In this document: positions 10 through 44,096 of the stretch, in pieces
Position numbering within the stretch: position 1 is the first letter of the stretch
Layout: every line of letters begins with the position of its first letter
Virus record (IMG/VR): IMGVR_UViG_3300045988_136394
Location: 1-64,000 of that record
Direction: 5' to 3' (one strand)
DNA: 64,000 nucleotides
From: a virus
The notes under the pieces: model-generated
Told to the model about the DNA's origin: nothing
The model's input: the letters and a program-made list of their open reading frames with translations, nothing else
Database searches by the model: none
Translations under genes and position numbers: made by a program

Positions 10-38
10 ATTATAGCCCCCCTTTATCCTGTTGTCAA
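10..38 (-). promoter_or_regulatory. sigmaA-type promoter on the minus strand (TTGACA-17-TATAAT, with a G6 run directly before the -10); it fires leftwards out of the window
   Basis: The reverse complement of 10-38 reads TTGACAACAGGATAAAGGGGGGCTATAAT. A near-identical 40-bp copy lies at 3216-3256. Confidence 0.5.
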
Positions 39-116: not shown

Positions 117-530
117 TTATGGTACTACGGTTAAAACAACGTTGTTTCCTGCTGCGATAATCATTCTGCTTAATTCTTCGCCGTCGATATTCTGCATACG
201 CAGACAGCCGTAAGTCGGTACCCAGCCTTGACGTCCTGCAAACGGATTAGGCAAGCCGCTGCCGCCACCGTGAATATCTCTTGCTCGTGGGTCGTGGGTA
301 GTGATATAGAATGTGCCATAAGCTGCGCCATATGCGCCGTTAGTAACTTCTGCGCTTACGTTTGTATAAACGCCGTCCGGTAAGCTTCCACGGGGGTCGC
401 CTGCTTCGTTGTAGCCCGGAACAAAATCGTCACGACATTCCCAATCACCAATGACATTATAGCTTTCATCCATTGCGAAAATGCGCTGTTTACTACGCTG
501 AAACTGGATTTCTTTGACCATGTTTATCAC
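117..530 (-). CDS. L,D-transpeptidase (YkuD) catalytic-domain protein
   Basis: HGGGSG...TYGCLRM motif, the conserved His...Gly...Cys catalytic pattern of L,D-transpeptidases. Confidence 0.55.
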   Translation of the reverse strand: MINMVKEIQFQRSKQRIFAMDESYNVIGDWECRDDFVPGYNEAGDPRGSLPDGVYTNVSAEVTNGAYGAAYGTFYITTHDPRARDIHGGGSGLPNPFAGRQGWVPTYGCLRMQNIDGEELSRMIIAAGNNVVLTVVP

Positions 531-552: not shown

Positions 553-1143
553 TTATTTCGTGGTAGGCAAAAATTTATTAACTACATAATCAATAACCCT
601 TTTTACTGCGTTAGCAATACTGCTATATCCTAGTTCTATCAGATTCTCGTTTATGCTGGACAGTTCTACTACTAATATACATACTGTGATAATACCCGGC
701 AAAAAGTCGTTTAAAATTAAATTTGTTGAAAATAATTTAATATTCGGAACTACTTGCCCAGCATAAAATGCAATGACTAAACTAGCATTGTAAACCAGCA
801 ATTTTTCTATAACCCTTGAAAGGGCGGCACTGTTTAAATAATTCTTTTTCCATGTTTCGGCTTTAAAGCAGTAATACAAGGCTTTACGAAGTGAGATAAA
901 TTCAATCGGTGTATCAGGCGTTAAATTTTCATGGATGTATTTTTTGCTAATATAAACGACTTTAAGAAATGTATCATAAAGGACTAATCCGAATGATAAA
1001 AACACTACACCCCAAAAGCCTTCTCCAAACGTCTTATATCCAAAAGTCCATATAGCCACAGCATATGCCCATACATCAATATTCGCAAACCTGTTAATTA
1101 TATATTTAAGTTTTTCATATAAATTTGTCCACATAAAATACAC
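553..1143 (-). CDS. hypothetical integral membrane protein
   Basis: 196-aa ORF with several hydrophobic segments. No recognisable motif. Confidence 0.4.
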   Translation of the reverse strand: MYFMWTNLYEKLKYIINRFANIDVWAYAVAIWTFGYKTFGEGFWGVVFLSFGLVLYDTFLKVVYISKKYIHENLTPDTPIEFISLRKALYYCFKAETWKKNYLNSAALSRVIEKLLVYNASLVIAFYAGQVVPNIKLFSTNLILNDFLPGIITVCILVVELSSINENLIELGYSSIANAVKRVIDYVVNKFLPTTK

Positions 1144-1188
1144 CCCTTGTTTTTACTATATTATATCACAGTAAAAACAAGGGGTGTT
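1141..1188. repeat. perfect 15-bp inverted repeat hairpin (CCCCTTGTTTTTACT...AGTAAAAACAAGGGG) between cistrons, overlapping the start codon of 553..1143
   Basis: Seen directly. Stem 15 bp, loop 12 nt. Confidence 0.6.
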
Positions 1189-1191
1189 CCC

Positions 1192-1611
1192 TTATTTCTT
1201 TTTAAAGTAATCGTCTATGCCGTGCGCCTGTACGCTGCTTATGCTTTCATAAAAATCGGGCTTTAAGCTATGTTTTTCAAGCCACTTCATAACGGCTGCT
1301 GTTAATGTTTTTTCTAGTTCGGAACAGGCTTCTTCTGATATATCTTCTAGTTTTAGCCAATCAGCAGCAGCAATTCCTGCTATCTCGTCAGCTTCAATTT
1401 TTAGAATATCCAATACTGTTTCTGATTTTAAAGCTGGCGTGTACAGCTTTGCACTCCCTGTATATACTACTAGACATCCTTTGTTGTGTTCGTCGTTCAT
1501 AGCCGCCTGCATTGCTTCCTCACGGCTGTTAAAATCACCCTGCCATGTTTCCCTATCAAAAGAATAGGCGTATAGCTGTGCTGTCTTTGCGGATTGCTTT
1601 TTTACTACCAT
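1192..1611 (-). CDS. hypothetical protein
   Basis: 139-aa ORF that fits the minus-strand operon context. Confidence 0.4.
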   Translation of the reverse strand: MVVKKQSAKTAQLYAYSFDRETWQGDFNSREEAMQAAMNDEHNKGCLVVYTGSAKLYTPALKSETVLDILKIEADEIAGIAAADWLKLEDISEEACSELEKTLTAAVMKWLEKHSLKPDFYESISSVQAHGIDDYFKKK

Positions 1612-1648
1612 TTTTCACCTTCTTTACCTGGGCTTTTGCCCTGCTTTT

Positions 1649-1972
1649 TCAAAATTTAATTAATGTCGGATTATGTTTGAGCTTTCTCGAAACTTTACGT
1701 TTTATGGCAGCGTTTAAATCGTCGTCCCGTATCGGTAAAGTTATCAATAGCTGCGATAATGATATATATACATCTGCCATTTTTTCTACAATCTTACTGT
1801 ATTGCGGCTCGCTTTTTACTAACTGTTCAACTAATTTAGTGCTAGAAATGCAGCAGCTTTCTATGATTTTTTCTTTCGTTGCAGCTTTAGCAATACATTC
1901 TATGCTCAATCTGTCTAATATCATAGCAGACGGTAGCACACGATTTTTATTTAAGGTTTGGTTTTCAAACAT
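1649..1972 (-). CDS. hypothetical protein; start moved to the ATG at 1972, which has a GAGGA ribosome-binding site (RBS) and an ATGTTTGA overlap with the upstream stop
   Basis: The ORF-track frame is 1649..2068. The internal ATG with an RBS overlaps the stop of 1965..2162. Confidence 0.35.
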   Translation of the reverse strand: MFENQTLNKNRVLPSAMILDRLSIECIAKAATKEKIIESCCISSTKLVEQLVKSEPQYSKIVEKMADVYISLSQLLITLPIRDDDLNAAIKRKVSRKLKHNPTLIKF

Positions 1973-2162
1973 TTTTGTCCTCGCGTTGGGCTTCGTTCCA
2001 TTTTCTAGTCGTTTCAAGAATTCCGTCACCATATGCGCCTGATATAGACTGTCCGCAGTTACATTCAAAGTAAAAGGATAGTCCCAATTTTAGTCTTGGC
2101 TGACTTTTGCATTTTTTACAAGCTGCAATTTTTAATTTTAAGCTGCCGTTTTTCTTTGCCAT
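1965..2162 (-). CDS. Lar-family-like zinc-ribbon protein (putative restriction alleviation)
   Basis: CKKC...ECNCG zinc ribbon and a C-terminal ...TTRKWNEAQRE that resembles the Lar-family C-terminus (…EAI.AWNRR). Confidence 0.4.
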   Translation of the reverse strand: MAKKNGSLKLKIAACKKCKSQPRLKLGLSFYFECNCGQSISGAYGDGILETTRKWNEAQREDKNV

Positions 2163-2164
2163 AG

Positions 2165-2437
2165 CTATAAGCCCCTTTCTGTTTTTTCATCTAACGGAAT
2201 ACCCACATCAACTAACTGCTTGACGCCTTTCAATATGTGGTCTATAGAGTTTTTCCTCTTTTGAATTTTTAAAATGTATCCTACTAAATTCGCGCACACT
2301 ACGGCTGCATGAAATTCGTCTAAATTTAAAAAACATTCGTCGCTGATTAAATCGCCTGACGCTTCCCGTGTTATTCCCACAACGACTACGCTGTCGTTTT
2401 CTTTAGCTAATATCCTAGCTGCTTCTTTCGCGTTCAT
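2165..2437 (-). CDS. hypothetical protein
   Basis: 90-aa ORF. Confidence 0.35.
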   Translation of the reverse strand: MNAKEAARILAKENDSVVVVGITREASGDLISDECFLNLDEFHAAVVCANLVGYILKIQKRKNSIDHILKGVKQLVDVGIPLDEKTERGL

Positions 2438-2447
2438 ATTATCCCCC

Positions 2448-2771
2448 CTAAATCAATTCTAAAATCGCTTGTAATTCGACTTCTGTATTATATTTTTTTA
2501 CGTCATCTTTAATGGTAAAACGGTCTTTAAACCATAAAGTTAAAAAGCAACTCATTGTAAAAAAGCGAACGAAAAACGCGCCATAATTTTTTAAATAAAG
2601 TTGATGAAAACCAAACCAGCCGAAAAATGACCATAGATATAAAGCTCTATCTAAATCAATGCTTTTTTTTGCAACTTTCATCCTGAATTTTGTTTTCCCT
2701 GTTTCTGAAAGTTTTTCATACTGTTCGTTAATAAAGTCCTCTTTTGTTGAAAAATCCATAGTGTGTAGCAT
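2448..2771 (-). CDS. TM2-domain membrane protein
   Basis: GWFGFHQLYLKNYG...FF matches the TM2-domain signature (G..G.H.FYLG). Confidence 0.5.
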   Translation of the reverse strand: MLHTMDFSTKEDFINEQYEKLSETGKTKFRMKVAKKSIDLDRALYLWSFFGWFGFHQLYLKNYGAFFVRFFTMSCFLTLWFKDRFTIKDDVKKYNTEVELQAILELI

Positions 2772-2790
2772 AGTTTTTACCCCTTTCTTT

Positions 2791-3075
2791 TTACAAAAAC
2801 TCTGAAACTAATTCGTATCCCTCGTGGCTCTCGTTGAAGCATACCTTGTTATTCAATTCTTTAGGTACATCCTTTAATACGATACTTGCCCTAATGCCTA
2901 AATATCTTACTGCCGGGTTAACCTCTTTGAATACTCCTTTAGCTAGATTCCTAGCCTCACTGTAGTTGTAGGCAAAGGCTATAACTATTCCCAGCTCAGG
3001 AAACTCTTTGCTAGAACACTTGAAAGCCCTAACTTTTTCATACTGCTTTATCATGTTAGCCATTCTACAGTCCAC
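2791..3075 (-). CDS. hypothetical protein, first gene of the leftward operon
   Basis: 94-aa ORF. The true start may be the internal Met (MANMIKQ...). Confidence 0.35.
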   Translation of the reverse strand: MDCRMANMIKQYEKVRAFKCSSKEFPELGIVIAFAYNYSEARNLAKGVFKEVNPAVRYLGIRASIVLKDVPKELNNKVCFNESHEGYELVSEFL

Positions 3076-3224
3076 CTAACCAGCCGCGCCATATAGGATA
3101 TTCTATCAACACTTCGGCAAGTCCGGCACTTAATTTAACCGCAAAACTCACTAATCCAGCGGCGGCAGCAACTTTAATTATTGTTTTCCACTCAAACAAA
3201 TTATCAACTCCTATCTTTACTTAT

Positions 3225-3254
3225 ATTATAGCCCCCCTCTGTTCTGTTTGTCAA
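3225..3254 (-). promoter_or_regulatory. sigmaA-type promoter on the minus strand (TTGACA-18-TATAAT, G6 run before the -10) driving the 3075 to 117 operon
   Basis: Reverse complement reads TTGACAAACAGAACAGAGGGGGGCTATAAT. It is a direct-repeat copy of 1-40. Confidence 0.55.
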
Positions 3255-3299
3255 TAGGGTAATAAAAAATATAGTCCCTGTTAGAAGCTGGTAGGCAGA

Positions 3300-3620
3300 A
3301 AAACCCCTAACAGCACACAGTATTACTACTGTCTACTGAAAAGAGGTTTTTGCGATTGCGTCCCCGCCGTCGCTGTATAGTTGAATTGCTAGCCATTTCA
3401 TAGCGTCCCCAACGTCCCACGCTCCATGACTTACCCCCGCGCACTCTGCGCCCGTTGCCGCCAGCCGTATATTTTATAGACTATGCCTGTCTAAAGGTAT
3501 ATACACCATACCAGAGTAGGTTGACCTCTGCCAACTTCCCCCCCGCATAAAGCCCACTACAGCTAAAGCGGCTACTGATTTTTGCAATTAGAAAATCAGT
3601 AGGGGCAACGACTTTATAAA
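3300..3620. other. GC-rich ORF-free island between divergent promoters, with several hairpins; possible structured RNA or protein-binding region
   Basis: Local GC is far above the phage average (runs such as gcgtccccgccgtcgc and cccccgcgcactctgcgcccgttgccgcc). No ORF longer than 22 codons. An 11-bp stem ctactgatttt/aaaatcagtag is present. Confidence 0.3.
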
Positions 3621-3745
3621 CTTGGCTCGTTGCAGCACCAACCATTTTTTATACACAGGTGGGGTTATTCTGTGTCATTCCTATAGAGGTAAGGAATTTT
3701 TTCTATATTTAGTTAAAATCTAGTGTCAGCATTTACTTTTTTATA

Positions 3746-3774
3746 TTGACATTACTTTAAAATTTAGATATAAT
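3746..3774 (+). promoter_or_regulatory. consensus sigmaA promoter TTGACA-17-TATAAT
   Basis: ttgaca ttactttaaaatttaga tataat, a perfect consensus. Confidence 0.6.
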
Positions 3775-3780
3775 TTCTAT

Positions 3781-3928
3781 ATAGGCGTAACAAAAGGGGA
3801 CCTATAACTTCTAAAAGTTATAAGTTGATAATTAGTGTCGGCAAACATTTTTTATTGACATTGTTTTTTTTTGTTGCGTTTGCGTATGAGGTAGCAGCTC
3901 TGAAAAGAGTTGCTACTTTTTTATTTTA
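3781..3928 (+). ncRNA. candidate small RNA, about 150 nt, from the consensus promoter to an intrinsic terminator; no plausible ORF
   Basis: Promoter at 3746-3774. Terminator hairpin gtagcagctct-gaaa-agagttgctac followed by TTTTTTATTTT. Internal hairpin ataactt/aagttat. Confidence 0.35.
3891..3928 (+). terminator. Rho-independent terminator
   Basis: 11-bp stem with one G.U pair, GAAA loop, then T6AT4. Nested inside an outer 7-bp stem atgaggt/acctcat. Confidence 0.55.
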
Positions 3929-3953
3929 ACCTCATTTGATAAATTTGTCTAGT

Positions 3954-3983
3954 TGTGGATAATGTGGATAACTCTGTGTATAA
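3954..3983. promoter_or_regulatory. tandem DnaA-box cluster (TGTGGATAA-TGTGGATAA plus TGTGTATAA) followed by an AT-rich stretch
   Basis: Two contiguous perfect 9-mers matching the Firmicute DnaA-box consensus TTATCCACA/TGTGGATAA and a third copy with one mismatch. Confidence 0.55.
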
Positions 3984-4065
3984 ACTATATATAGTATTTA
4001 AACCGGAGTATTAGCCTATAAAAACACAAGATATAGTAAAAATAAAAGTTGTAAAAATTTTTAGC

Positions 4066-4094
4066 TTGATTTTTTTAGCCGTGCCGTTTATAAT
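4066..4094 (+). promoter_or_regulatory. sigmaA-type promoter TTGATT-17-TATAAT
   Basis: ttgatt tttttagccgtgccgtt tataat. Confidence 0.45.
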
Positions 4095-4128
4095 AATTCT
4101 GTAATTACAAATGCGTTAGGGGGGGGCA

Positions 4129-4251
4129 ATGCCTGTTCTCGAACGAATCAAAAGCCGCTCCCCGATAGTTCCTAACGTCGTGAATAACAAGAACATCACA
4201 AGCGCATATTTTCTTTTTCAAAATAAGTATCCTTTCTGTATGATTTATTAA
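4129..4251 (+). CDS. possible 40-aa small ORF (MPVLERIKSRSPIVPNVVNN...) within a roughly 210-nt promoter-to-terminator unit; may instead be a small RNA
   Basis: ATG preceded by a G8 run (RBS-like). The unit is bounded by the promoter at 4066-4094 and the terminator at 4271-4310. Confidence 0.25.
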   Translation: MPVLERIKSRSPIVPNVVNNKNITSAYFLFQNKYPFCMIY

Positions 4252-4270
4252 AAAAATCTTAGTAGGTTAT

Positions 4271-4310
4271 CCCTAGAATGCAGCTATACATTCTAGGGAT
4301 TTTTTCTTTT
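4271..4310 (+). terminator. Rho-independent terminator
   Basis: 10-bp stem ccctagaatg/cattctaggg followed by a T-run. Confidence 0.55.
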
Positions 4311-4329
4311 TATTTTTTTCAAAATTCAC

Positions 4330-4358
4330 TTGACACCTTCTTGTATTCGCTTTATAAT
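4330..4358 (+). promoter_or_regulatory. consensus sigmaA promoter TTGACA-17-TATAAT for the plus-strand operon
   Basis: ttgaca ccttcttgtattcgctt tataat, then RBS AAAGGGGGG before the ATG at 4380. Confidence 0.6.
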
Positions 4359-4379
4359 GAGAATAAAGGGGGGCTACAA

Positions 4380-4556
4380 ATGAGGTTTGTGTTAATGGCG
4401 TTAGGGACTGGTGTCGTTGCCGCAACAGCGGTATTCGACACGTTTAGTCAGATATTAAATTTACTTTTTATCACGGTCAGCAATCAGCGACATTGCTTAC
4501 TGAATTTACTTTACTTTATAAGCGCAGTTCTTGCGCTGCTGGTGATTTTGAAATGA
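4380..4556 (+). CDS. small hydrophobic membrane protein (58 aa)
   Basis: ATG with a strong RBS directly downstream of the consensus promoter. Two hydrophobic helices. Confidence 0.45.
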   Translation: MRFVLMALGTGVVAATAVFDTFSQILNLLFITVSNQRHCLLNLLYFISAVLALLVILK

Positions 4557-4816
4557 GGGTCATATTAAATCCTTTAATGCCGAATAAAGACGGTTACTTG
4601 ATGCCTGTAAAGCCGTCACAAGTCTATCATTGCGATAACATAAATCAATTTGTTACGCAAGTTGTTAAATCCGGCTCGCTCAATACTGAATATGTTGATT
4701 TGTGCAACATAGTTGGCTATTCAGAAGAAAAGGCGGATGTTAAAACATTAGTCGAGATTTTGAAAGACTTATTTTTTGAAAAACATCTAGCTTTAACAGC
4801 GGATTTTGACGAATAA
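4554..4816 (+). CDS. hypothetical protein (87 aa)
   Basis: ATG overlaps the upstream stop (ATGA), suggesting translational coupling. Confidence 0.4.
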
Positions 4817-4938
4817 AAAAACGCCTGCACAAGACGCACAGACGTAAAAAAGGAGTAAGCCGCTACACATAAATAATATAACTAAATATGTGCTTAATCA
4901 AACTTAAAGGATTACTAATGAGAAAGAAGGGCAAAGCT

Positions 4939-5814
4939 ATGCAGATTAAATTCCCATTACTAAACGCAGAAGATATAGAGATACGCGTTAACCGTATCAT
5001 TAAGTGCTATGCCGAGAATGCACAAGGCGAACGTGTTGAATACTACAAGGCAGATTTACTGCTTTATAAAGACGCTCGTGTTGATATGTATTATTTAGAT
5101 AGATACGTCGGGGCGGATAGCTGGCAAAGAACGCACAGGGCAGAAGGAAACGACTTCATCTGCGGAATATCCATAAAAAATGAAGCTGGAGAATGGATAA
5201 CTAAAGAAGATGTAGGCGAATTATCCAACGTTTCGGCGAATAAGGGGCGCGCTTCCGACGCCTTTAAACGTGCTGCTACTAATTGGGGTATAGGGCGGGA
5301 ATTATACAGTTCCCCCAAAATTCAGCTCATACTAAAAAAATATGAAACGTATATCAACAATCGAACGAAAAATGTAGCCTTAAGCAATGATGTTTCTTTT
5401 TTCGTTTCAGAAATTGAATACGACGAAAAAAAGCGTATCATTAAAGCTCTTGTGATTAAAGACGGGAACGGTAACTATCGTTTCGCCTACCCAGACGGCA
5501 AGCGCAACGAGATACAGAAACGAATTGAAGCAGCGCAGCAGGTCGGCGCATTAGTTGCCGCCAGCGTCGAAAAAGGCAAAGAAAAGCCTTTGCCTGAAAT
5601 CATCCCAGTTAAGCGGGAACGGGCAGAGGAAGCACCGCCCGCTATTAAGCCCAAAAATACGCCGCCACCTAAAGATGATGATACACGTAACATGTGTATC
5701 ATGTGCGGTGTCGGAATAAGCAAAGCTGTAGCAGCTATATCCAATCGTAAAGTACAGCAGGCAGTTTGTCTGCAATGTCGAGAAAAAATATTGAAAGGCA
5801 GGTATAAAAAGTGA
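4939..5814 (+). CDS. Rad52-like single-strand annealing protein (Sak-type recombinase)
   Basis: N-terminal FPLLNAEDIEIRVNRI and the RASDAFKRAATNWGIGRELY motif, typical of the Rad52/Sak family. Start chosen at the ATG that has a GAAGGG RBS. Confidence 0.65.
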   Translation: MQIKFPLLNAEDIEIRVNRIIKCYAENAQGERVEYYKADLLLYKDARVDMYYLDRYVGADSWQRTHRAEGNDFICGISIKNEAGEWITKEDVGELSNVSANKGRASDAFKRAATNWGIGRELYSSPKIQLILKKYETYINNRTKNVALSNDVSFFVSEIEYDEKKRIIKALVIKDGNGNYRFAYPDGKRNEIQKRIEAAQQVGALVAASVEKGKEKPLPEIIPVKRERAEEAPPAIKPKNTPPPKDDDTRNMCIMCGVGISKAVAAISNRKVQQAVCLQCREKILKGRYKK

Positions 5815-6002
5815 ATTTAAAAGGTATCGTTTCAGGTGTAGTGTGCGAAAAATGCGGGGCAGTGAAGCTGTTTCCTTTTTCAACAAAAGGTCAGACAAAA
5901 ATCAAAGCCCGGTCTTTAGGCTGGACTATATCTAAGCAAAAGCAGGTAGGCACTGAATGGCGTTGTGTGTGCAAGTGTCCCGATTGCGTGAATAACGGTT
6001 AA
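5811..6002 (+). CDS. zinc-ribbon protein (63 aa)
   Basis: CEKCG...CVCKCPDC cysteine pairs. GTG start overlaps the upstream stop. Confidence 0.35.
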   Translation: MNLKGIVSGVVCEKCGAVKLFPFSTKGQTKIKARSLGWTISKQKQVGTEWRCVCKCPDCVNNG

Positions 6003-7348: not shown

Positions 7349-7639
7349 CTATATTTTTACCCGTGTAAAGTCAAATGGATTTTTATATGGATTTTTTAAA
7401 CTGTATCCGCTAATTAATCCACCCTGATAACCAAAATTGTCAAGCCATTGCCCATTTTTTCTAAATCTTATGGCGTCCTTGCAATTTGTGCTTCTTAAAT
7501 AAATCGTCCCGCTTTTGGTAATTTTTAAAATTTTTTCTATTGTCTGCCTATCGCCAGCCATTGAATGATATTCTATAGTAACTTCATCACCGACTTTCAA
7601 GGTCGCTGCATATTTTTCTAAAGTCATATATGTTGACAT
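7349..7639 (-). CDS. hypothetical protein
   Basis: 96-aa ORF whose stop abuts the next gene. Confidence 0.4.
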   Translation of the reverse strand: MSTYMTLEKYAATLKVGDEVTIEYHSMAGDRQTIEKILKITKSGTIYLRSTNCKDAIRFRKNGQWLDNFGYQGGLISGYSLKNPYKNPFDFTRVKI

Positions 7640-8004
7640 TATTCTTTTTCCCTATCAAATATACTTTCATAATCCATTTGTAAATAACGCACTGCTTCTT
7701 CACATATTGCTGTATTCCAATAATTTATCAAATTTTGTTTATGATTAAAAAGCCCAGTTGTCAAGTCACAAACACGACAAACAATTTTATATCCGCCATT
7801 TGGAAGTTCACGAATTATTGGTTGATAGCCACATTTAGGGCAAGGTTGTAAGGATTTAATTTCAAATTCATTCAAAATATGACAAATTTCTTCGGCTACC
7901 TGCAAAGGTACATTAACGGCCATGGCTAAAATTCTATAATTCTTATGAACTTCATATACATTATAAAGGTCTGATTTTTCATCTGTTAAAACTGGTTCAT
8001 ACAT
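7639..8004 (-). CDS. zinc-ribbon protein with a Lar-like C-terminal half (putative restriction alleviation)
   Basis: LQPCPKCGY...VCRVCD cysteine pairs in a Lar-like arrangement (CPxCG...C..C). Confidence 0.35.
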   Translation of the reverse strand: MYEPVLTDEKSDLYNVYEVHKNYRILAMAVNVPLQVAEEICHILNEFEIKSLQPCPKCGYQPIIRELPNGGYKIVCRVCDLTTGLFNHKQNLINYWNTAICEEAVRYLQMDYESIFDREKE

Positions 8005-8750: not shown

Positions 8751-8779
8751 ATTATAATGCTATCTAGTATATTTGTCAA
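8751..8779 (-). promoter_or_regulatory. consensus sigmaA promoter (minus strand) TTGACA-17-TATAAT for the 8615 to 6099 operon
   Basis: Reverse complement reads TTGACAAATATACTAGATAGCATTATAAT. Confidence 0.55.
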
Positions 8780-14610: not shown

Positions 14611-14651
14611 AAAGTTATCCACAACTTTATTCACAGCCTGTGGATAACTTT
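14611..14651. promoter_or_regulatory. inverted pair of DnaA boxes (AAAGTTATCCACA...TGTGGATAACTTT, 13-bp perfect inverted repeat, 15-bp spacer) just upstream of the promoter at 14554-14582
   Basis: Perfect TTATCCACA and TGTGGATAA 9-mers seen directly. Confidence 0.5.
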
Positions 14652-20340: not shown

Positions 20341-20403
20341 TTACCGCCCCCCCCTGTATGATACTATTATACTATCATACAGGGTCATTGTCAATGATTA
20401 TTT

Positions 20404-23900: not shown

Positions 23901-24981
23901 CGATATCCTCGTCTAAAGAAGATAAAATTTGAACGACTTTACCTTCTACCATTTTAATAGCTGTTGGTGTGCCATAGGATAAAGTGATAATATCTGTGGA
24001 TAAAGTATTTACAAGTTCTTTAAATTGAACAATGTCCAATAAGCACTCAAATTCTTTAAAATCATCACTTTCATCATATGGAATAATTTCTTCTGCTTTT
24101 GTTCTTGAAGAAATCATTTTAAGGCCTGTTTTAGTAAACAACAATTTAATAGTATTTTTATCATATTCAGATACGAAAATACTTAAACGGTCTAATGCCG
24201 CTTGCACTAAAGATTTTTTAATTGTACAAGTAGAAGGAAATTTTGTTTCTAAAAAACCATCAAGAGCTTCTACAGGATACGATTCAATATCTTCTAATTG
24301 TGTGCCTGCAATTTCAATCGTTTTGGATTTAATGATAACATCATTATCTACGAAATATACCTGTACATCTTCCTCTGTAATTAGAGTTGACAATTTCAAT
24401 AATTCGATTGGCAATAATGCAGGTCTTTTAAAAACATTTACTGAATATACGCAAAGCCTCAAGCTATCCGTGGTCATTACCCTGTCATTGAAATAATATC
24501 CAGTTATTACAGGATTTTCAATGGTTTTAGCTAAGCTTGCTGTGCAAATATCATAAACCGCCTGAAGAATTGGCTGTTTAACACGTACGGGTTTAACATC
24601 CTCAGGTATTTCTATGGAAACGTCCGGAAATTGCAATATATCCCCATTTTCGTCCAGTACAAGCTCAATATGATAATATCCATTACCTTTAAAAGTTAAA
24701 ACACCTTCCTCAATGGTAAGAATAATATGCTCACTTGTTGTTTTACTTACAAGCTTAGCAAAACTTGCAACAGGCAATACACAAGAAATATTTGGAGCTT
24801 TTACTTTATCTTTGTAAATACTTAAAAAATTAGCTCCATCTGTAGTTCTTAAACACAATACATTATCTTTTACTTCAAAACCAATATAATTCGTTAAAGG
24901 AATAAGTTTATCACAACTTGCACCTTTAACAACTCTGGATACCATATCTTTTAACTCTGATGTAATAATATCAATTTTCAT
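23893..24981 (-). CDS. DNA polymerase sliding clamp (DnaN-like beta subunit)
   Basis: 362 aa. N-terminal MKIDIIT...L...V pattern and clamp-loader context. Confidence 0.5.
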   Translation of the reverse strand: MKIDIITSELKDMVSRVVKGASCDKLIPLTNYIGFEVKDNVLCLRTTDGANFLSIYKDKVKAPNISCVLPVASFAKLVSKTTSEHIILTIEEGVLTFKGNGYYHIELVLDENGDILQFPDVSIEIPEDVKPVRVKQPILQAVYDICTASLAKTIENPVITGYYFNDRVMTTDSLRLCVYSVNVFKRPALLPIELLKLSTLITEEDVQVYFVDNDVIIKSKTIEIAGTQLEDIESYPVEALDGFLETKFPSTCTIKKSLVQAALDRLSIFVSEYDKNTIKLLFTKTGLKMISSRTKAEEIIPYDESDDFKEFECLLDIVQFKELVNTLSTDIITLSYGTPTAIKMVEGKVVQILSSLDEDIDG

Positions 24982-25559
24982 TATTTACTACTCCTTACTA
25001 AATTAATAAAAGATTGTTGTTCATCAAGATTTTCAAAAACGCCACTAGTATGCAAAGTTCTTGTAACCGCTCCTGGCTTTTTAATACCTCTTGCAGTCAT
25101 ACAAGAATGTTCTCCTTCAATCATTACAATTACATTGTCAGTCGATAAAATAGCAGACATAATACGATGAATACTAAATCCCATTCTTTCCTGAATTTGA
25201 AATCTTTTTGCAACCATATCAGCAATACGTGCCATCTTCGAAAGTCCAATTACTTTCGTTCTTGGATAATATCCAATACTTACATTCATATTATACATCA
25301 ATGCAAGATGATGTTCACAGTGACTAAAAACAGGAATATTTGTACAGGTTACAATACCGTGACCAGTTGTTTCAAAACACTTGCCAAACTTACTAACAAG
25401 ATCGGAATCAGAATAGAACTCACCCTCAAGTTGCTCTAACATCATTTTTGCAAATCTTTTAGGAGTTTCCTTTAATGAAGGATCTTGAAGATCTTTTCCA
25501 AAAGCCTGTAAAATAAGCTCTCCTGCGGATATAAGCATTTGTTCTTTAGTATTTTCCAT
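24981..25559 (-). CDS. folE: GTP cyclohydrolase I (FolE); start moved to the internal Met (MENTKEQ...) that abuts the queE stop
   Basis: HCEHH and GHG motifs of FolE. The ORF track extends to 25697 and overlaps queE. Confidence 0.75.
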   Translation of the reverse strand: MENTKEQMLISAGELILQAFGKDLQDPSLKETPKRFAKMMLEQLEGEFYSDSDLVSKFGKCFETTGHGIVTCTNIPVFSHCEHHLALMYNMNVSIGYYPRTKVIGLSKMARIADMVAKRFQIQERMGFSIHRIMSAILSTDNVIVMIEGEHSCMTARGIKKPGAVTRTLHTSGVFENLDEQQSFINLVRSSK

Positions 25560-25560
25560 T

Positions 25561-26214
25561 TTATACTCCTCTTTCATCCGGATTCCATATAATTTTATGA
25601 AGTTGAACTTGTACCATTGTATTTTCAAACATATTATCTTTAACAAATTGAACAAGTTCTTTCGGTTCAATCTGCCCATACACTGGGCTAAGAACATAGG
25701 TACAAATCAAATCCATATTATAAATTCGTTTAAATTCTTCTAAATCTTCTTTAGTAGCAACAACGAATTTCAATACATCATTATAAGTGAGCTTTTTAAG
25801 ATTACTTTCAAGCATTGAACCTAGCATACCACTACTCGGACATTTCCAATCCATTGTAACAAATACTCCGGGCAAACTACAACATGGTTCAATCGGCACA
25901 GAACCATTTGTTTCAATATTTACATGATACCCACCCCAAGATAAAGCTTCAATAAGATCGTTCATACCCGCTCTAAATAATGGTTCTCCACCTGTTAAAG
26001 TTACACGGCAACAACCAATTTTAGCAATGCTTTCAAGAATTTCCTGTAAAGACATATTTGGTTCTTGAACATCTTGTGCGTAAAGGGTATCACAATAACT
26101 ACAACATAAGTTACAGCCATTAAAGCGTACAAAAGTTGAAAGAAATCCAGTTCTAATTCCTTCACCTTCCACACTTAAAAACATTTCATTTACACTATAT
26201 ATCTTCTTGTTCAT
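25561..26214 (-). CDS. queE: 7-carboxy-7-deazaguanine synthase (QueE, radical SAM)
   Basis: CNLCCSYC (CxxxCxxC) radical-SAM cluster motif, about 217 aa. Confidence 0.75.
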   Translation of the reverse strand: MNKKIYSVNEMFLSVEGEGIRTGFLSTFVRFNGCNLCCSYCDTLYAQDVQEPNMSLQEILESIAKIGCCRVTLTGGEPLFRAGMNDLIEALSWGGYHVNIETNGSVPIEPCCSLPGVFVTMDWKCPSSGMLGSMLESNLKKLTYNDVLKFVVATKEDLEEFKRIYNMDLICTYVLSPVYGQIEPKELVQFVKDNMFENTMVQVQLHKIIWNPDERGV

Positions 26215-26533
26215 AAATTGCTAAATTCCCTTCGCTTTCTTGTACTTCTACTCTGTAACACGTTGGAATAATATCACAAATATATTTTGCAATATTTTCA
26301 GCTGTTGGATTAAAAGGAACAACTTGATTAATACTTTGATGATCGAATACATCCATTACACATTTTTTAATATGTGTAAAATCCTCAACCATGCCATAAT
26401 CCGAAAGTTCTCTAGCTTTGCAATAAATTTTAACTTTCCAATTATGACCGTGAAGATTAGCGCATTTACTCTCATAAGGCAGATTTAAATAATGAGATGC
26501 AGATATTTCTAATTCTTTGATAACTGTGTACAT
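26195..26533 (-). CDS. queD: 6-carboxy-5,6,7,8-tetrahydropterin synthase (QueD)
   Basis: CANLHGHNW (CxxxHGH) zinc motif, about 112 aa. Confidence 0.75.
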   Translation of the reverse strand: MYTVIKELEISASHYLNLPYESKCANLHGHNWKVKIYCKARELSDYGMVEDFTHIKKCVMDVFDHQSINQVVPFNPTAENIAKYICDIIPTCYRVEVQESEGNLAIYEQEDI

Positions 26534-26712
26534 TTTCTTCCTCCTGGTTTAATACGATTATGATATCTTTTTACTTTTACTTCGTGAATAAGATTTAATA
26601 ATACTTCAGCAGAAACTAATAAATTACCATTAGTATATTCATTTGCATATAAAGCAGTCTTTGCTCTTGTTTCTAGTTCTTTGATGGTTTTACCGTCTAC
26701 CATTTTTGCCAT
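26509..26712 (-). CDS. hypothetical 67-aa protein embedded in the deazaguanine operon
   Basis: ORF between queC and queD. No motif. Confidence 0.3.
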   Translation of the reverse strand: MAKMVDGKTIKELETRAKTALYANEYTNGNLLVSAEVLLNLIHEVKVKRYHNRIKPGGRKCTQLSKN

Positions 26713-26714
26713 AA

Positions 26715-27401
26715 TTAACCTCGCAAAGCTGGATCTTTTACACCATTAACTTCAAAAGCATGAGCTCTATCTCTACATGTACCACATACTCCACAAGGTT
26801 TTTCTCCACCCTCATAACAAGACCATGTAAATTTATAAGGGACTTTCAATGACAATCCAGCTTTAACAACTTCGCCTTTATTAAACATAATCAAAGGAGC
26901 TCTTAATGTAAGTTGGCCGCCAGTACCTTCTAAAATTGCTTTACGCATGGCATCCACAAATTCAGGAGTACAGTCCGGATATGCCCTACCAGCCGCATCA
27001 TCTGCATGAGCGCCATACCACACTTCACAGCCCCCGAGGGAATAAGCCAAAGACGCCGCTGAAGATAACATTAAGCCGTTACGAAATGGTACATAGGTAC
27101 TAACAGTCCCTTCACCACCTAATTCCTTTAATTGTTCGGCATAGGTAGTATGTTTAATTTCATTTTTACTATTTTTTAATAAACAGCAATCACTCAATTC
27201 CATAATACTACTAATATCCCGAACAATATGTTGAACACCATAATGTTCCGCTAACTTTTTAGCACAAGCTAATTCTTTCTCATGCTTTTGGCCGTAGTAA
27301 ATAGATAACGCTGTTACCTCTTTATTGCCATAACAATCAACTGCCATACCTAAACAAGTAGCGCTATCAACACCACCGCTCAACAATACAACTGCTTTCA
27401 A
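26715..27401 (-). CDS. queC: 7-cyano-7-deazaguanine synthase (QueC)
   Basis: SGGVDS PP-loop and C-terminal CGVCGTCRDR zinc motif. Confidence 0.85.
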   Translation of the reverse strand: MKAVVLLSGGVDSATCLGMAVDCYGNKEVTALSIYYGQKHEKELACAKKLAEHYGVQHIVRDISSIMELSDCCLLKNSKNEIKHTTYAEQLKELGGEGTVSTYVPFRNGLMLSSAASLAYSLGGCEVWYGAHADDAAGRAYPDCTPEFVDAMRKAILEGTGGQLTLRAPLIMFNKGEVVKAGLSLKVPYKFTWSCYEGGEKPCGVCGTCRDRAHAFEVNGVKDPALRG

Positions 27402-28321
27402 AATAATCGCCTCCTAATAATTTTTCCACCATGATAAGTATATTCTTTTGCCCAATCCATCAAAAATGTTACATTCCACAAATCGCGCTGAACATAATCT
27501 TCCATTAACTGCTCAAAATCGAAATTCTTGCTTTTAATGTAAGATTTTAAATCTTCCAAAGCTACAGCACTACCATTTAAAGGGTGAGCCATTTTATCCT
27601 TTTGCTGAGCACTAATAATAATAGTACCCCATGGAGTATAAATTGCTCCATTATGCCCGCTTTGAATCCACGAAGAACTATCCGCAGAAGTAACTGGATA
27701 TTGGACTAAAGTTTTTCTTACAGTCATTCCAAAAGCATGGACTTTAACATTGGGATTACTCGAACTTTTTATAATATCAAAACATAACGATAAAAAGTTC
27801 TTTTGTACATCTTTAGGCTTGCCCACCATACCACCAAGAGCGATATATTTTAATGGTTGGCCATTTTCATCTCGCCATTCTAAGGCTCTACGCAAACACC
27901 ATATCGGTTCACCCACATGGAACGTATATAGTAAGCCATCCTTATTTAAAACAGCATCCCTCATATACAAATAATTTTTCCATGTTTTTACAGCTGCATC
28001 TAATACTTGTGCTTGTGTAGGCTTTTGCCTGATGTTTCCTGGAATACAGTCCAATTGACCAAATAAATCAATATACTGCACTCTGTCGTTTAAAAAGTAA
28101 ACATAATCATCAACATTAATATATGTACCTTTAGTCCATGCAGTAAAAGCACCACTGTCAATAAATAGTTTACCTTTTCGACCGTATTGATTAATCCAGC
28201 CAATCCATCTATCAATATTTTTCCTTTCGTTCAAATAACTGAATAGATGATTGGCTCCCATATCGAACAAGCACTTATCTACATGATCTGTAACTTGTCC
28301 CGCAAAATATAAATCTAACAT
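27398..28321 (-). CDS. dpdA: DpdA-like tRNA-guanine-transglycosylase-family protein (putative 7-deazaguanine DNA transglycosylase)
   Basis: ALGGMVGK resembles the TGT AIGGL(A/S)VGE motif. Operon context with folE, queD, queE and queC. Confidence 0.55.
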   Translation of the reverse strand: MLDLYFAGQVTDHVDKCLFDMGANHLFSYLNERKNIDRWIGWINQYGRKGKLFIDSGAFTAWTKGTYINVDDYVYFLNDRVQYIDLFGQLDCIPGNIRQKPTQAQVLDAAVKTWKNYLYMRDAVLNKDGLLYTFHVGEPIWCLRRALEWRDENGQPLKYIALGGMVGKPKDVQKNFLSLCFDIIKSSSNPNVKVHAFGMTVRKTLVQYPVTSADSSSWIQSGHNGAIYTPWGTIIISAQQKDKMAHPLNGSAVALEDLKSYIKSKNFDFEQLMEDYVQRDLWNVTFLMDWAKEYTYHGGKIIRRRLF

Positions 28322-28349: not shown

Positions 28350-28378
28350 ATTATACCTTACTATTATAATAATGTCAA
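28350..28378 (-). promoter_or_regulatory. consensus promoter TTGACA-17-TATAAT (minus strand) for the dpdA-queC-queD-queE-folE operon
   Basis: Reverse complement reads TTGACATTATTATAATAGTAAGGTATAAT. Confidence 0.55.
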
Positions 28379-39157: not shown

Positions 39158-39247
39158 AATTATTGGCCTCCTTATATACTAATTATACCGCAATGATTTT
39201 AAAATGTCAATAAAAAAGAGTACATTCCGAAGAATGTACTCTTTAAA

Positions 39248-44048: not shown

Positions 44049-44096
44049 CTTATACTCCTTAATTATAGTATATTATTTTTATTTTGTCAAGCTTTA

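What the first reader, a model, noticed from the sequence alone, without database searches (positions are those of the whole stretch)
3076..4380. 1.3-kb ORF-poor control region with consensus promoters, two small promoter-to-terminator units and a GC-rich island
The region contains a perfect TTGACA-17-TATAAT promoter (3746-3774) followed 150 nt later by a strong terminator. That unit is a small-RNA candidate with no ORF. It also contains a second unit (promoter 4066-4094, terminator 4271-4310) that holds a possible 40-aa ORF or a small RNA. A 320-bp island (3300-3620) is much more GC-rich than the phage, has no ORF, and carries several hairpins. The island sits between divergent promoters, so it may be a structured RNA, a protein-binding array or a remnant of foreign DNA.
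Basis: seen in the sequence. Interest (0 to 1): 0.6.

Follow-up and report, generated by a model that had tools for sequence, protein, structure and literature searches.

The report
New structured RNA in gut phage
It sits next to two small terminated RNA units, one of which lies exactly antisense to the likely start of the large RNA's transcript.

Summary
The sequence features are all present. There are three perfect sigma-70 promoters (3225-3254 minus strand, 3746-3774 plus, 4330-4358 plus), two strong terminators, and an island with 48% GC in a phage of 33% GC.

The island is not decayed coding sequence, foreign DNA or a repeat array. It is a conserved structured RNA on the MINUS strand, with its core at about 3675 to 3274. 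It occurs in about 60 related human-gut phage contigs that form 2-3 clades. I modelled 14 helices and 89 base pairs. 29 pairs change on both sides yet stay paired. G-U pairs appear only when the minus strand is read. Rfam has no match.

A conserved leftward promoter (3951..3923) sits at the 3' end of small unit 1. Its transcript would run antisense through that small RNA and into the structured RNA. This is the countertranscript layout known from plasmid replication control.

The 40-aa ORF in unit 2 is broken in 14 of 20 variants, so unit 2 is a structured small RNA. DnaA boxes and iteron-like repeats lie in the same region.

Function is unproven. My best guess is a stable trans-acting RNA or RNP scaffold whose synthesis is gated by the antisense small RNA. 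The main rival is an origin or primer RNA.

The parts
3274..3675 (-). Core of the conserved structured RNA, about 400 nt. It has 14 helices (H0, P2, P4, P4b, P4c outer and inner, Px, Py, P1, P5, P6, P7, P7m, P7i) and invariant G-rich single-stranded blocks.
   Evidence: The curated structural alignment holds 35 unique sequences from clades A, B and B2. 98.2% of pair cells are canonical on the minus strand against 91.1% on the plus strand. 29 of 89 pairs change on both sides. Slid controls give 0-4 such pairs. RNAalifold gives -94.5 kcal/mol for the minus strand and -63.4 for the plus strand.
3360..3380 (-). Conserved 21-nt block CUAUACAGCGACGGCGGGGAC, unpaired in the model. It is invariant in clades A and B, with single substitutions in clade B2 and L050.
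   Evidence: An exact 21-mer scan found 38 viral contigs spanning clades that are only 62% identical overall. B2 changes the second-to-last base from A to G. One clade-A variant, L050, carries one other substitution inside the block.
3286..3298 (-). 3' block CUGCCURCCAGCU. It pairs either with the internal GGCUGGCGG (3458-3466, helix P1) or with the 5' leader GUUGGU (about 3636-3641).
   Evidence: RNAalifold on a plain MAFFT alignment recovers P1. RNAalifold on the curated alignment prefers the 5'-leader partner. All blocks are invariant, so covariation cannot decide between them.
3467..3504 (-). Px/Py stem-loop: GUAUA...UAUAC enclosing UAGAC-AGGCAUA-GUCUA.
   Evidence: Clade B has GUGCA/UGCAC and UAGGG/CCCUA at the same positions, so four pairs change on both sides. 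RNAalifold recovers this independently.
3572..3602 (-). P4 hairpin: CUACUGAUUUU/AAAAUCAGUAG.
   Evidence: Two alleles exist within clade A, differing at four of the stem's pairs: two change on both sides, one changes on one side to a minus-strand G-U pair, and one changes on both sides to a G-U. Clade B has a different sequence at the same place (CAUGUA/UACAUG), and variant L027 has CAUAUA/UAUAUG.
3301..3349 (-). P7 three-tier hairpin. In clade A it ends in a GUAA (GNRA) tetraloop.
   Evidence: Covarying pairs occur in P7m and P7i. U-G pairs at 3 positions are canonical only on the minus strand.
3677..3702 (+). Hairpin ATTCCT/AGGAAT followed by a T-run. On the plus strand it looks like a weak terminator. 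On the minus strand it is simply a hairpin upstream of the RNA core.
   Evidence: Read from the sequence. Clade B has CGCT/AGCG and B2 has GCTA/TAGC at the same place.
3225..3254 (-). P_L, a perfect TTGACA-18-TATAAT promoter of the leftward operon. It lies about 20 nt downstream of the RNA core.
   Evidence: Clade B has TGGACA-17-TAATAT at the same place.
3065..3199 (-). 44-aa hydrophobic ORF, the first gene after P_L (TTG start, AGGAG 9 nt upstream).
   Evidence: It has no family match. Whether it is a real gene was not tested further.
3746..3774 (+). P_R1, a perfect TTGACA-17-TATAAT promoter of small unit 1.
   Evidence: The hexamers are kept and the spacer varies across 20 clade-A variants. 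Clade B has TTGACA-17-TAGAAT.
3781..3925 (+). sRNA1, about 145 nt and non-coding. It has a hairpin at 3804-3821 and a terminator at 3888-3919 plus a T-run. It is fully antisense to the first ~135 nt of the predicted P_as transcript.
   Evidence: Compensatory changes T3809C/A3816G and T3892C/A3915G; a plus-strand G-U at 3897; frame-breaking indels; a 41-nt insertion in 12 of 20 variants; and 1 to 3.2 copies of the 8-nt GTTATAAG repeat.
3923..3951 (-). P_as, a leftward promoter (TAGACA-17-TAAAAT) that overlaps the T-run of the sRNA1 terminator.
   Evidence: 10 of 12. One clade-A variant carries T3926A, which makes the -10 a perfect TATAAT, while the spacer varies. Clade B has TTGACG-17-TATAAT or TACAAT in the same position relative to its own unit-1 terminator. 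No minus-strand terminator lies between it and the RNA core.
3954..3983 (+). Cluster of DnaA boxes: two perfect tandem TGTGGATAA boxes and one box with a single mismatch, directly upstream of the -35 of P_as.
   Evidence: One variant has a third perfect copy. Clade B has the same triple cluster 4.4 kb away in the opposite orientation.
4066..4094 (+). P_R2 (TTGATT-17-TATAAT), the promoter of small unit 2.
   Evidence: The spacer varies heavily in clade A. The -10 changes at one position in 3 of 20 unique variants. The -35 and spacer have an indel at 4070 and a substitution at 4071.
4101..4306 (+). sRNA2, about 205 nt. It has a conserved 5' stem-loop (4114-4120 paired with 4171-4177, with a G-run/C-run inner stem) and an invariant terminator at 4269-4300. 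The 40-aa ORF at 4129-4251 is not conserved.
   Evidence: The ORF is intact in 6 of 20 variants. C4171T gives a G-U on the plus strand. G-run and C-run lengths both vary. No Rfam match.
4330..4358 (+). P_R3, a perfect promoter that drives the first rightward protein genes (SD GGGGGG, ATG at 4380).

Best explanation
The region is the non-coding early-control hub of an uncultivated human-gut myophage that probably infects Firmicutes.

**What the island is.** The GC-rich island encodes a new structured RNA of about 400 nt on the minus strand (3675 to 3274).

**Shown**
- It is conserved as a fold with 14 helices. Many changes are compensatory, and the G-U pairs are specific to the minus strand.
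- It is non-coding.
- It matches no Rfam family.

**Inferred from conserved promoter geometry in two clades**
- It is transcribed leftward from P_as (3951..3923) as an RNA of about 650 nt.
- The first ~135 nt of that RNA are exactly antisense to sRNA1. sRNA1 is a short terminated RNA made from the perfect promoter P_R1.
- sRNA1 therefore acts as a countertranscript. Together with the convergent promoters, it gates production or folding of the large RNA.

**Mechanism I commit to (about 40%).** The folded core is a stable trans-acting RNA or RNP scaffold. Its invariant G-rich unpaired blocks (CUAUACAGCGACGGCGGGGAC, ACGGCUGGCGGC, GGGGG, GGACGU) form the binding surface for a conserved protein or nucleic-acid partner early in infection.

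sRNA2 is a separate structured small RNA, not a peptide gene.
For: **Homologues**
- Pattern scans plus nhmmer find the island in about 60 contigs. These reduce to 35 unique sequences in clades A, B and B2.
- The clades are 62-64% identical and contain invariant blocks of up to 21 nt. The neighbouring proteins share only 28-54% identity.

**Structure**
- Of 89 modelled pairs, 29 change on both sides.
- 98.2% of pair cells are canonical. Slid controls give 32-49%, and 500 column shuffles give at most 87.6%.
- RNAalifold on plain MAFFT alignments independently recovers P1, P5, P6, P7, Px and Py.

**Strand**
- 228 cells at about 16 positions are G-U on the minus strand. Only 25 cells, all at one position, would be G-U on the plus strand.
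- GUAA and GAAA loops occur on the minus strand.
- Alifold gives -94.5 kcal/mol for the minus strand against -63.4 for the plus strand.

**Not coding**
- Every frame has at least 3 stops, and 27 of 28 indels between clades are not multiples of 3.

**Not a known family**
- The Rfam E-value scan gave only two chance-level hits, both outside the island. No tRNA or tmRNA was found.

**Countertranscript geometry**
- P_as occupies the same position next to the unit-1 terminator in both clades. Its hexamers are conserved and its spacer varies.
- No minus-strand terminator lies before the core.

**Trans-acting partner**
- An RNA that only hybridises to its own template would not need invariant unpaired blocks.
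Against: - No transcript data exist, so the start, the end and even the expression of the RNA are inferred.
- P_as matches only 10 of 12 positions in the window, and its link to the core rests on the absence of predicted terminators.
- No terminator follows the core in clade B. The RNA could therefore continue into the P_L operon as a leader.
- No partner protein or target was identified. The conserved 90-aa neighbour has no family or PDB match. No significant complementarity to sRNA1, sRNA2 or nearby UTRs was found.
- Sequence diversity is low, at 2-3 clades, so many covarying cells trace back to a single deep split.
- The structural alignment was hand-fitted to the model.
- Origin-like features in the same region (DnaA boxes, iteron-like repeats, AT-rich DNA) favour the rival explanation.
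Confidence: 0.6

Rival explanations
1. The region is an origin of replication driven by a transcript. On this view the long G-rich minus-strand RNA is a pre-primer or R-loop RNA, like ColE1 RNA II or the non-coding PE1-T transcript of Lactococcus phage c2. sRNA1 would be the RNA I-like antisense inhibitor. DnaA boxes, iteron-like repeats and AT-rich DNA would complete the origin.
For: - The layout is the same as in Ceduovirus (c2-type) phages. Their ori lies in the non-coding stretch between divergent gene modules, flanked by the first early promoters, and PE1 makes a non-coding transcript needed for replication (PMC7150918).
- The short antisense RNA covers the 5' end of a longer structured RNA of about 650 nt. 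From my own knowledge, this is the arrangement in ColE1.
- The RNA core has 113 G and 81 C.
- Two perfect DnaA boxes and one near-perfect box abut P_as.
- Tandem repeats with copy-number variation occur in unit 1 of both clades: 13 nt x 4.5 copies in clade B and 8 nt x 3.2 copies in clade A.
- 3700-4100 is only 25-32% GC.
- The phage encodes a Pol I-type DNA polymerase.
- Replication moving leftward from here would run in the same direction as nearly all genes in the window.
Against: - The phage has a full initiator-dependent replication set: a lambda-O/DnaD-like initiator, a DnaC-like loader, DnaB, a primase and SSB. From my own knowledge, origins of such systems usually lie in or beside the initiator gene, which here is at about 35-36 kb.
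- In clade B the DnaA-box cluster is 4.4 kb away from the island.
- A primer that only needs to hybridise to its own template does not explain invariant 19-21-nt unpaired blocks or a 14-helix fold.
- No RNase H gene was seen among the ORFs I scanned.
Confidence: 0.28
2. The structured RNA is a cis-acting leader of the leftward operon, acting as a processive antiterminator or a stabiliser. On this view it is co-transcribed into the P_L genes and is not a separate RNA.
For: - It has the same orientation as the P_L operon and lies immediately upstream of it.
- Clade B has no terminator-like element between the core and P_L.
- The operon downstream is mosaic and varies in length (2.1-4.9 kb from the RNA to the holin-like gene), while the RNA stays constant.
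Against: - A perfect consensus promoter (P_L) sits between the RNA and the operon, so the operon needs no upstream transcript.
- From my own knowledge, known antitermination RNAs such as put and EAR are 70-120 nt, not 400.
- Clade A has a T-run right after the core.
Confidence: 0.08
3. The island is not an RNA. It would instead be a decayed coding sequence, a remnant of foreign DNA, or a double-stranded protein-binding array. A variant of this rival is that the functional RNA is on the plus strand.
For: - GC content is far above the phage average.
- Small ORFs of 31-54 aa overlap the island.
- A weak plus-strand promoter lies at 3248-3275, and a plus-strand terminator-like hairpin lies at 3677-3702.
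- Both strands fold with z of about -4.
Against: - All six frames have at least 3 stops in every clade, and the indels break the frame.
- Changes are compensatory in 29 pairs.
- No internal repeats were detected.
- Read on the plus strand, about 16 helix positions become A-C mismatches.
- The plus-strand promoter is not conserved in clade B.
Confidence: 0.04

Closest known systems
ColE1-type RNA II / RNA I (and other countertranscript systems such as pT181, pIP501 and pCF10 PQ/PX)
   Same: A strong promoter makes a short terminated RNA with stem-loops. That RNA is exactly antisense to the 5' end of a longer structured RNA of several hundred nt, which is made from a weaker convergent promoter. 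The long RNA is G-rich, and a Pol I-type polymerase is present.
   Different: There is no sequence or Rfam similarity. The host element is a virulent-looking dsDNA myophage with its own initiator, loader, helicase and primase. Hybrid formation and RNase H processing are untested. The antisense overlap lies about 235 nt upstream of the conserved fold, not inside it.
Replication origin of Lactococcus Ceduovirus (c2-type) phages with the non-coding PE1-T transcript
   Same: Both have a non-coding stretch between divergently oriented gene modules in a Firmicutes phage. Both have tandem early sigma-A promoters, the first of which makes a non-coding transcript with no ribosome-binding site or ORF. 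In c2 the sequence and structure of that transcript are reported as essential (PMC7150918).
   Different: In c2 the essential transcript comes from the first early promoter itself. Here the large conserved fold is on the opposite strand. No sequence similarity was found. Ori function is untested here.
Large phage-associated structured RNAs of unknown function (GOLLD, ROOL)
   Same: All are large, ornate, multi-helix non-coding RNAs carried by phages or prophages of Firmicutes. They were found by conservation and covariation, show GNRA loops and long-range helices, and have no known function (PMC12286853, PMC5737381).
   Different: No match to the Rfam models at E<=1. This RNA is smaller, at about 400 nt, against roughly 580-800 nt for ROOL and GOLLD (sizes from my own knowledge). 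From my own knowledge, GOLLD and ROOL usually sit near tRNA clusters, whereas this RNA sits beside early promoters. Its distribution is very narrow (2-3 clades of one phage group). Oligomer formation is untested.

Membership tests
Any Rfam 15 family (including GOLLD, ROOL, tmRNA, RNase P, SRP, 6S, group I/II introns, riboswitches) | A covariance-model match at or near the family's gathering score | tested here: not met
   cmscan of 2800-4900 on both strands at E<=1 gave only GlmZ (16.7 bits against a gathering score of 60) and RsaJ (16.3 against 100). Both lie outside the island. ARAGORN found no tRNA or tmRNA.
Structured non-coding RNA (generic) | Helices are maintained by compensatory substitutions across homologues, more than controls allow | tested here: met
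   29 of 89 pairs change on both sides, and 98.2% of pair cells are canonical. Slid controls give 0-4 such pairs and 32-49% paired. Shuffles give at most 87.6%. RNAalifold partly confirms this on independent alignments.
Structured non-coding RNA (generic) | Transcription of the modelled strand | not testable with these tools
   There is only a promoter prediction (P_as) and the strand asymmetry of G-U pairs.
Protein-coding gene or decayed CDS | An open frame, or frame-preserving indels and third-position variation among homologues | tested here: not met
   All six frames have at least 3 stops in clades A, B and B2. 27 of 28 indels are not multiples of 3.
ColE1-like RNA II / RNA I replication control | A short terminated RNA that is antisense to the 5' end of a longer structured transcript | tested here: met
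   This rests on predicted promoters and terminators only. sRNA1 spans 3781-3925 (plus strand) and the P_as start is at about 3916 (minus strand). Clade B has the same layout.
ColE1-like RNA II / RNA I replication control | The long RNA forms a persistent hybrid at the origin and is cut to prime DNA synthesis | not testable with these tools
   The only support is indirect: the RNA is G-rich and a Pol I-type polymerase is present.
Phage replication origin (iteron / DnaA-box type) | Clustered initiator-binding repeats and DnaA boxes next to an AT-rich unwinding region, conserved in position among relatives | tested here: inconclusive
   DnaA boxes lie at 3954-3983 and AT-rich DNA at 3700-4100. 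Tandem repeats occur in unit 1 of some variants. However, the window itself has a single repeat copy, and clade B carries its DnaA cluster 4.4 kb away.
Small-peptide gene (the 40-aa ORF at 4129-4251) | The reading frame is kept among close relatives | tested here: not met
   The ORF is intact in 6 of 20 unique clade-A variants. A 1-nt deletion and a 2-nt insertion disrupt it in the rest.
Sigma-70/sigma-A promoter plus intrinsic terminator unit (sRNA gene) | Consensus hexamers with the correct spacing, a G+C-rich hairpin plus a T-run downstream, and conservation of these elements while the surroundings vary | tested here: met
   Searches give the motifs. The spacers vary; the P_R1 hexamers stay fixed, whereas the P_R2 hexamers are not fully fixed. 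The terminator stems show compensatory or no change. Transcription itself is untested.

The most novel reading that the evidence does not exclude
The island would be the founding member of a new class of large ornate phage RNAs, either a ribozyme or an RNP or RNA-only assembly in the manner of ROOL and GOLLD. It would be unusual in that a dedicated countertranscript sRNA and convergent promoters control its synthesis. It might also switch between two conformers, because the invariant 3' block CURCCAGC can pair either with the 5' leader or with an internal GGCUGG.
Probability: 0.25. Interest if true: 0.8.

Novelty: new variant of a known kind. Interest (0 to 1): 0.62.

Why it matters
Large, complex RNAs outside the classical families are rare, and each new one has tended to reveal new biochemistry. 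This one is conserved more tightly than the proteins around it in a group of abundant human-gut phages. It sits at the heart of the early control region and appears wired to an antisense small RNA.

Two outcomes would each matter:
- If it is a trans-acting RNA or RNP, it is a new tool that phages use during host takeover.
- If it is a primer RNA, it would show plasmid-style countertranscript control of replication in a large virulent phage.

Either way it gives a concrete, testable target, with defined helices, invariant loops and predicted promoters. It also serves as a marker for this uncultivated phage group.

Tried and rejected
- **Rfam, tRNA and tmRNA scans.** Nothing found.
- **More distant homologues.**
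  - Four block patterns were run over the viral contigs. They returned only clades A, B and B2 plus GC-rich chance hits.
  - The single metagenome scan was wasted on a pattern that was too loose. It returned 120 mostly soil false positives, with only L117 and L157 real.
  - The genome scan gave one stretch, in a cyanobacterial (Nodosilinea) MAG. The island HMM did not match it. So no prophage or host was identified.
  - Protein-anchored searches used the Erf-like protein and the 196-aa holin-like protein. They returned the same clades. Their distant protein relatives sit in unrelated lysis cassettes that lack the RNA.
- **Upstream motif.** The shared motif TTTAWCTAAAWMTA is not enriched in the window.
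- **The 90-aa conserved neighbour as an RNA-binding protein.** It has no Pfam, PHROG or PDB match.
- **Trans base-pairing.** Pairing of the large RNA with sRNA1, sRNA2 or nearby 5' UTRs is no better than with shuffled sequences.
- **GC-rich stretch at 1-610 as a second RNA.** It is a coding gene in the endolysin position.
- **My first version of helix P1.** It had a C-A mismatch in 25 of 35 sequences. RNAalifold's bulged version removes that mismatch. A competing 5'-leader partner remains possible.
Full report
**1.

- There is a 12/12 promoter at +3746-3774, and a 14-pair terminator with a T-run at +3888-3919.
- There is a 10/12 promoter at +4066-4094, and a 12-pair terminator at +4269-4300.
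- Two further 12/12 promoters lie at +4330-4358 and -3254..3225.

The 64-kb window holds nine perfect TTGACA-N16-18-TATAAT sites. Shuffles predict 0.11. Every site is co-oriented with the genes nearby, so these are real host-type promoters and three of them crowd into 1.1 kb.

The island (3300-3619) is 48.4% GC against 33.2% for the window, which places it in the top 0.6% of 320-nt windows.

One correction applies. 3065-3199 is a plausible 44-aa membrane-protein gene with a ribosome-binding site, so the ORF-poor stretch is about 3200-4379.

**2. Genomic context**

The window belongs to a myovirus-like phage. It has a tail sheath, a baseplate and a tape-measure protein. It also carries a large replication set of its own:
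- a Pol I-type polymerase
- a clamp and clamp loader
- an O/DnaD-like initiator
- a DnaC-like loader
- DnaB
- a primase
- SSB
- a UvsX-like recombinase
- 7-deazaguanine genes

Almost all genes lie on the minus strand. A short rightward module (4380-6002) includes an Erf-like annealing protein. The polymerase is closest to those of Clostridium phage phiCTP1 and Streptococcus phage Dp-1, at 46% identity. Together with the sigma-A-type promoters, this points to a Firmicutes host.

Near-identical and related DNA exists only as unannotated human-faecal contigs.

**3. The island is conserved as a fold**

A distant relative, MT836582, matched only the island. The alignment showed conserved blocks, indels of odd length and apparent compensatory changes.

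Pattern scans of viral contigs with four conserved blocks, followed by an nhmmer sweep of every fetched locus, gave about 60 full copies. These reduce to 35 unique sequences in clades A (like the window), B and B2.
- The clades are 62-64% identical over the element and contain invariant blocks of up to 21 nt.
- The syntenic proteins share only 28-54% identity.
- Every reading frame has at least 3 stops in each clade, and 27 of 28 indels between clades are not multiples of 3.

This is therefore not coding or decayed coding sequence. Tandem Repeats Finder finds no internal repeat, so it is not an array.

**4. Structure and strand**

MAFFT misaligns the variable hairpins. I therefore built a structure-guided alignment of the minus strand, with 472 columns. 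It has 14 helices: H0, P2, P4, P4b, P4c outer and inner, Px, Py, P1, P5, P6, P7, P7m and P7i.

Pair statistics:
- Of 89 pairs, 29-30 change on both sides and stay paired (29 under the stricter definition, 30).
- 98.2% of pair cells are canonical.
- Sliding the 3' partners by 1-3 columns gives 0-4 such pairs and 32-49% pairing.
- 500 column shuffles never exceed 87.6% pairing.

Several events are independent changes within a clade:
- two P4 alleles in clade A
- changes in P2 and P4 in clade B
- a change in Py in three clade-B variants
- a change in P6 in clades B and B2
- a change in P4c in L024

Read as the minus strand, 228 cells at about 16 positions are G-U. Only one position would be G-U on the plus strand, and RNAalifold's bulged version of P1 removes even that one. 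GNRA loops (GUAA, GAAA) also fall on the minus strand. RNAalifold on the same alignment gives -94.5 kcal/mol for the minus strand and -63.4 for the plus strand, and recovers 64 of my 89 pairs. On plain MAFFT alignments it independently finds P1, P5, P6, P7, Px and Py.

Caveats:
- The alignment was fitted to the model.
- The number of independent lineages is small.
- The invariant 3' block CURCCAGC can pair either with the internal GGCUGG or with the 5' leader GUUGGU. Covariation cannot decide between them.

Rfam has no match at E<=1.

**5. How the RNA is probably made**

No sigma-70 promoter sits directly upstream of the fold. Both clades, however, carry a leftward promoter immediately to the right of the unit-1 terminator.
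- In the window it is TAGACA-17-TAAAAT at 3951..3923. One clade-A variant carries T3926A, which makes the -10 a perfect TATAAT, while the spacer varies.
- In clade B it is TTGACG-17-TATAAT or TACAAT, with a variable spacer.
- No minus-strand terminator lies between this promoter and the fold.

The predicted transcript therefore starts at about 3916, runs antisense through all of sRNA1 and through P_R1, and reaches the fold about 235 nt later. Its total length is about 650 nt.

sRNA1 is a short, terminated, non-coding RNA made from a perfect promoter. It therefore has a ready-made, fully complementary target. This is the classic countertranscript and convergent-promoter layout. The inference rests on geometry conserved in two clades and has not been shown directly.

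**6. The two small units**

I compared 20 unique clade-A variants of 3690-4400.

*Unit 1*
- It keeps its hairpin through the paired changes T3809C and A3816G.
- It keeps its terminator through the paired changes T3892C and A3915G, and has a plus-strand G-U at 3897.
- Indels break every frame.
- It carries an 8-nt repeat present in 1 to 3.2 copies.
- Clade B has a non-homologous unit 1 with a 13-nt repeat present in 1 to 4.5 copies.

*Unit 2*
- It has an invariant terminator and a conserved 5' stem-loop. C4171T there gives a plus-strand G-U.
- Its 40-aa ORF is intact in only 6 of 20 variants, so it is a structured small RNA and not a peptide gene.

Clade B has the same three-promoter layout.

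**7. Origin-like features**
- Two perfect tandem DnaA boxes and one near-perfect box lie at 3954-3983, touching the -35 of P_as.
- 3700-4100 is 25-32% GC.
- Unit 1 carries iteron-like repeats.
- In Ceduovirus (c2-type) phages the origin lies in just such a non-coding stretch between divergent modules, and a non-coding early transcript is needed for replication (PMC7150918).

This supports a primer or R-loop reading. Three points count against it:
- The phage has a complete initiator-dependent replication set.
- Clade B carries its DnaA cluster 4.4 kb away.
- Invariant unpaired blocks are not needed for hybridising to one's own template.

**8. Verdict**

*Shown:* a new, conserved structured RNA of about 400 nt on the minus strand. 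It is flanked by two conserved non-coding promoter-terminator units, three perfect promoters and DnaA boxes.

*Inferred:* transcription from P_as and countertranscript control by sRNA1.

*Function is unproven.* My estimates are:

| Reading | Probability |
|---|---|
| Trans-acting RNA or RNP scaffold | about 40% |
| Origin or primer RNA | about 28% |
| Cis-acting leader | about 8% |
| Other or unknown | remainder |

The family is narrow: 2-3 clades of one gut phage group, with no genuine hit among the GTDB representative genomes. It is new as an RNA family but belongs to known kinds of system. The interest score reflects a well-supported new large RNA whose function is unresolved.

Noticed in passing
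window 10-38, 3225-3254, 3746-3774, 4330-4358, 8751-8779, 20366-20394, 28350-28378, 39182-39210, 44062-44090: The window holds nine perfect TTGACA-N16-18-TATAAT promoters against 0.11 expected, all co-oriented with the genes. The ones at 10-38 and 3225-3254 share the unusual spacer end GGGGGGC, as if duplicated.
   Followed up: partly
window 3954-3983; L018 5094-5122; window 14615 and 14639: A triple DnaA-box cluster (spacings 9 and 12 nt in the window, 9 and 11 nt in clade B) is kept as a module in clades A and B. It sits at different places and in opposite orientation in the two clades. A second pair of perfect boxes lies at 14615 and 14639.
   Followed up: partly
L117 9498-9555; L350 5122-5147; window 3804-3827: The unit-1 RNA region carries short tandem repeats whose copy number differs between near-identical phages. 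Clade B has the 13-nt TGAAGTCACAGTT in 1 to 4.5 copies. Clade A has the 8-nt GTTATAAG in 1 to 3.2 copies. They may be iterons or simply slippage-prone sequence.
   Followed up: partly
L013 3361-3840 and 4230-4704 (same contig as L369): One clade-B contig carries two copies of the whole structured-RNA region 869 nt apart. The second copy runs into the end of the fetched DNA (L013, and L369 from the same contig). This could be a true tandem duplication or an assembly artefact.
   Followed up: no
L011, L032, L044/L183, L191/L318, L157: Several metagenomic contigs end inside the island, each at a different position. This may reflect strain micro-diversity (for example the two P4 alleles) breaking the assemblies.
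   Followed up: no
window 1143-3237 versus L333-L350: The distance from the RNA to the 196-aa holin-like gene varies from 2.1 to 4.9 kb among clade-A phages. The P_L operon is therefore a mosaic, moron-like region while the RNA stays constant.
   Followed up: partly
window 24981-28321: This stretch holds GTP cyclohydrolase, a QueC-like protein and a tRNA-guanine transglycosylase-like protein. Such a gene set (also reported in Dp-1-like phages, from my own knowledge) suggests 7-deazaguanine modification of the phage DNA.
   Followed up: no
window 117-530 and 553-1143: Distant relatives of the 196-aa protein sit directly before an Amidase_2 endolysin, including in an Acidaminococcaceae MAG. The unusually GC-rich 137-aa ORF at 117-530 occupies the endolysin position here but matches no family.
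   Followed up: partly
window 7639-8004: This 121-aa protein has a Lar-like restriction-alleviation domain (27.4 bits, just under the Pfam cut-off of 28.6).
   Followed up: no
window 3636-3641 versus 3458-3466, both pairing with 3286-3294: The invariant 3' block of the RNA has two mutually exclusive invariant partners. This could indicate two conformers.
   Followed up: partly
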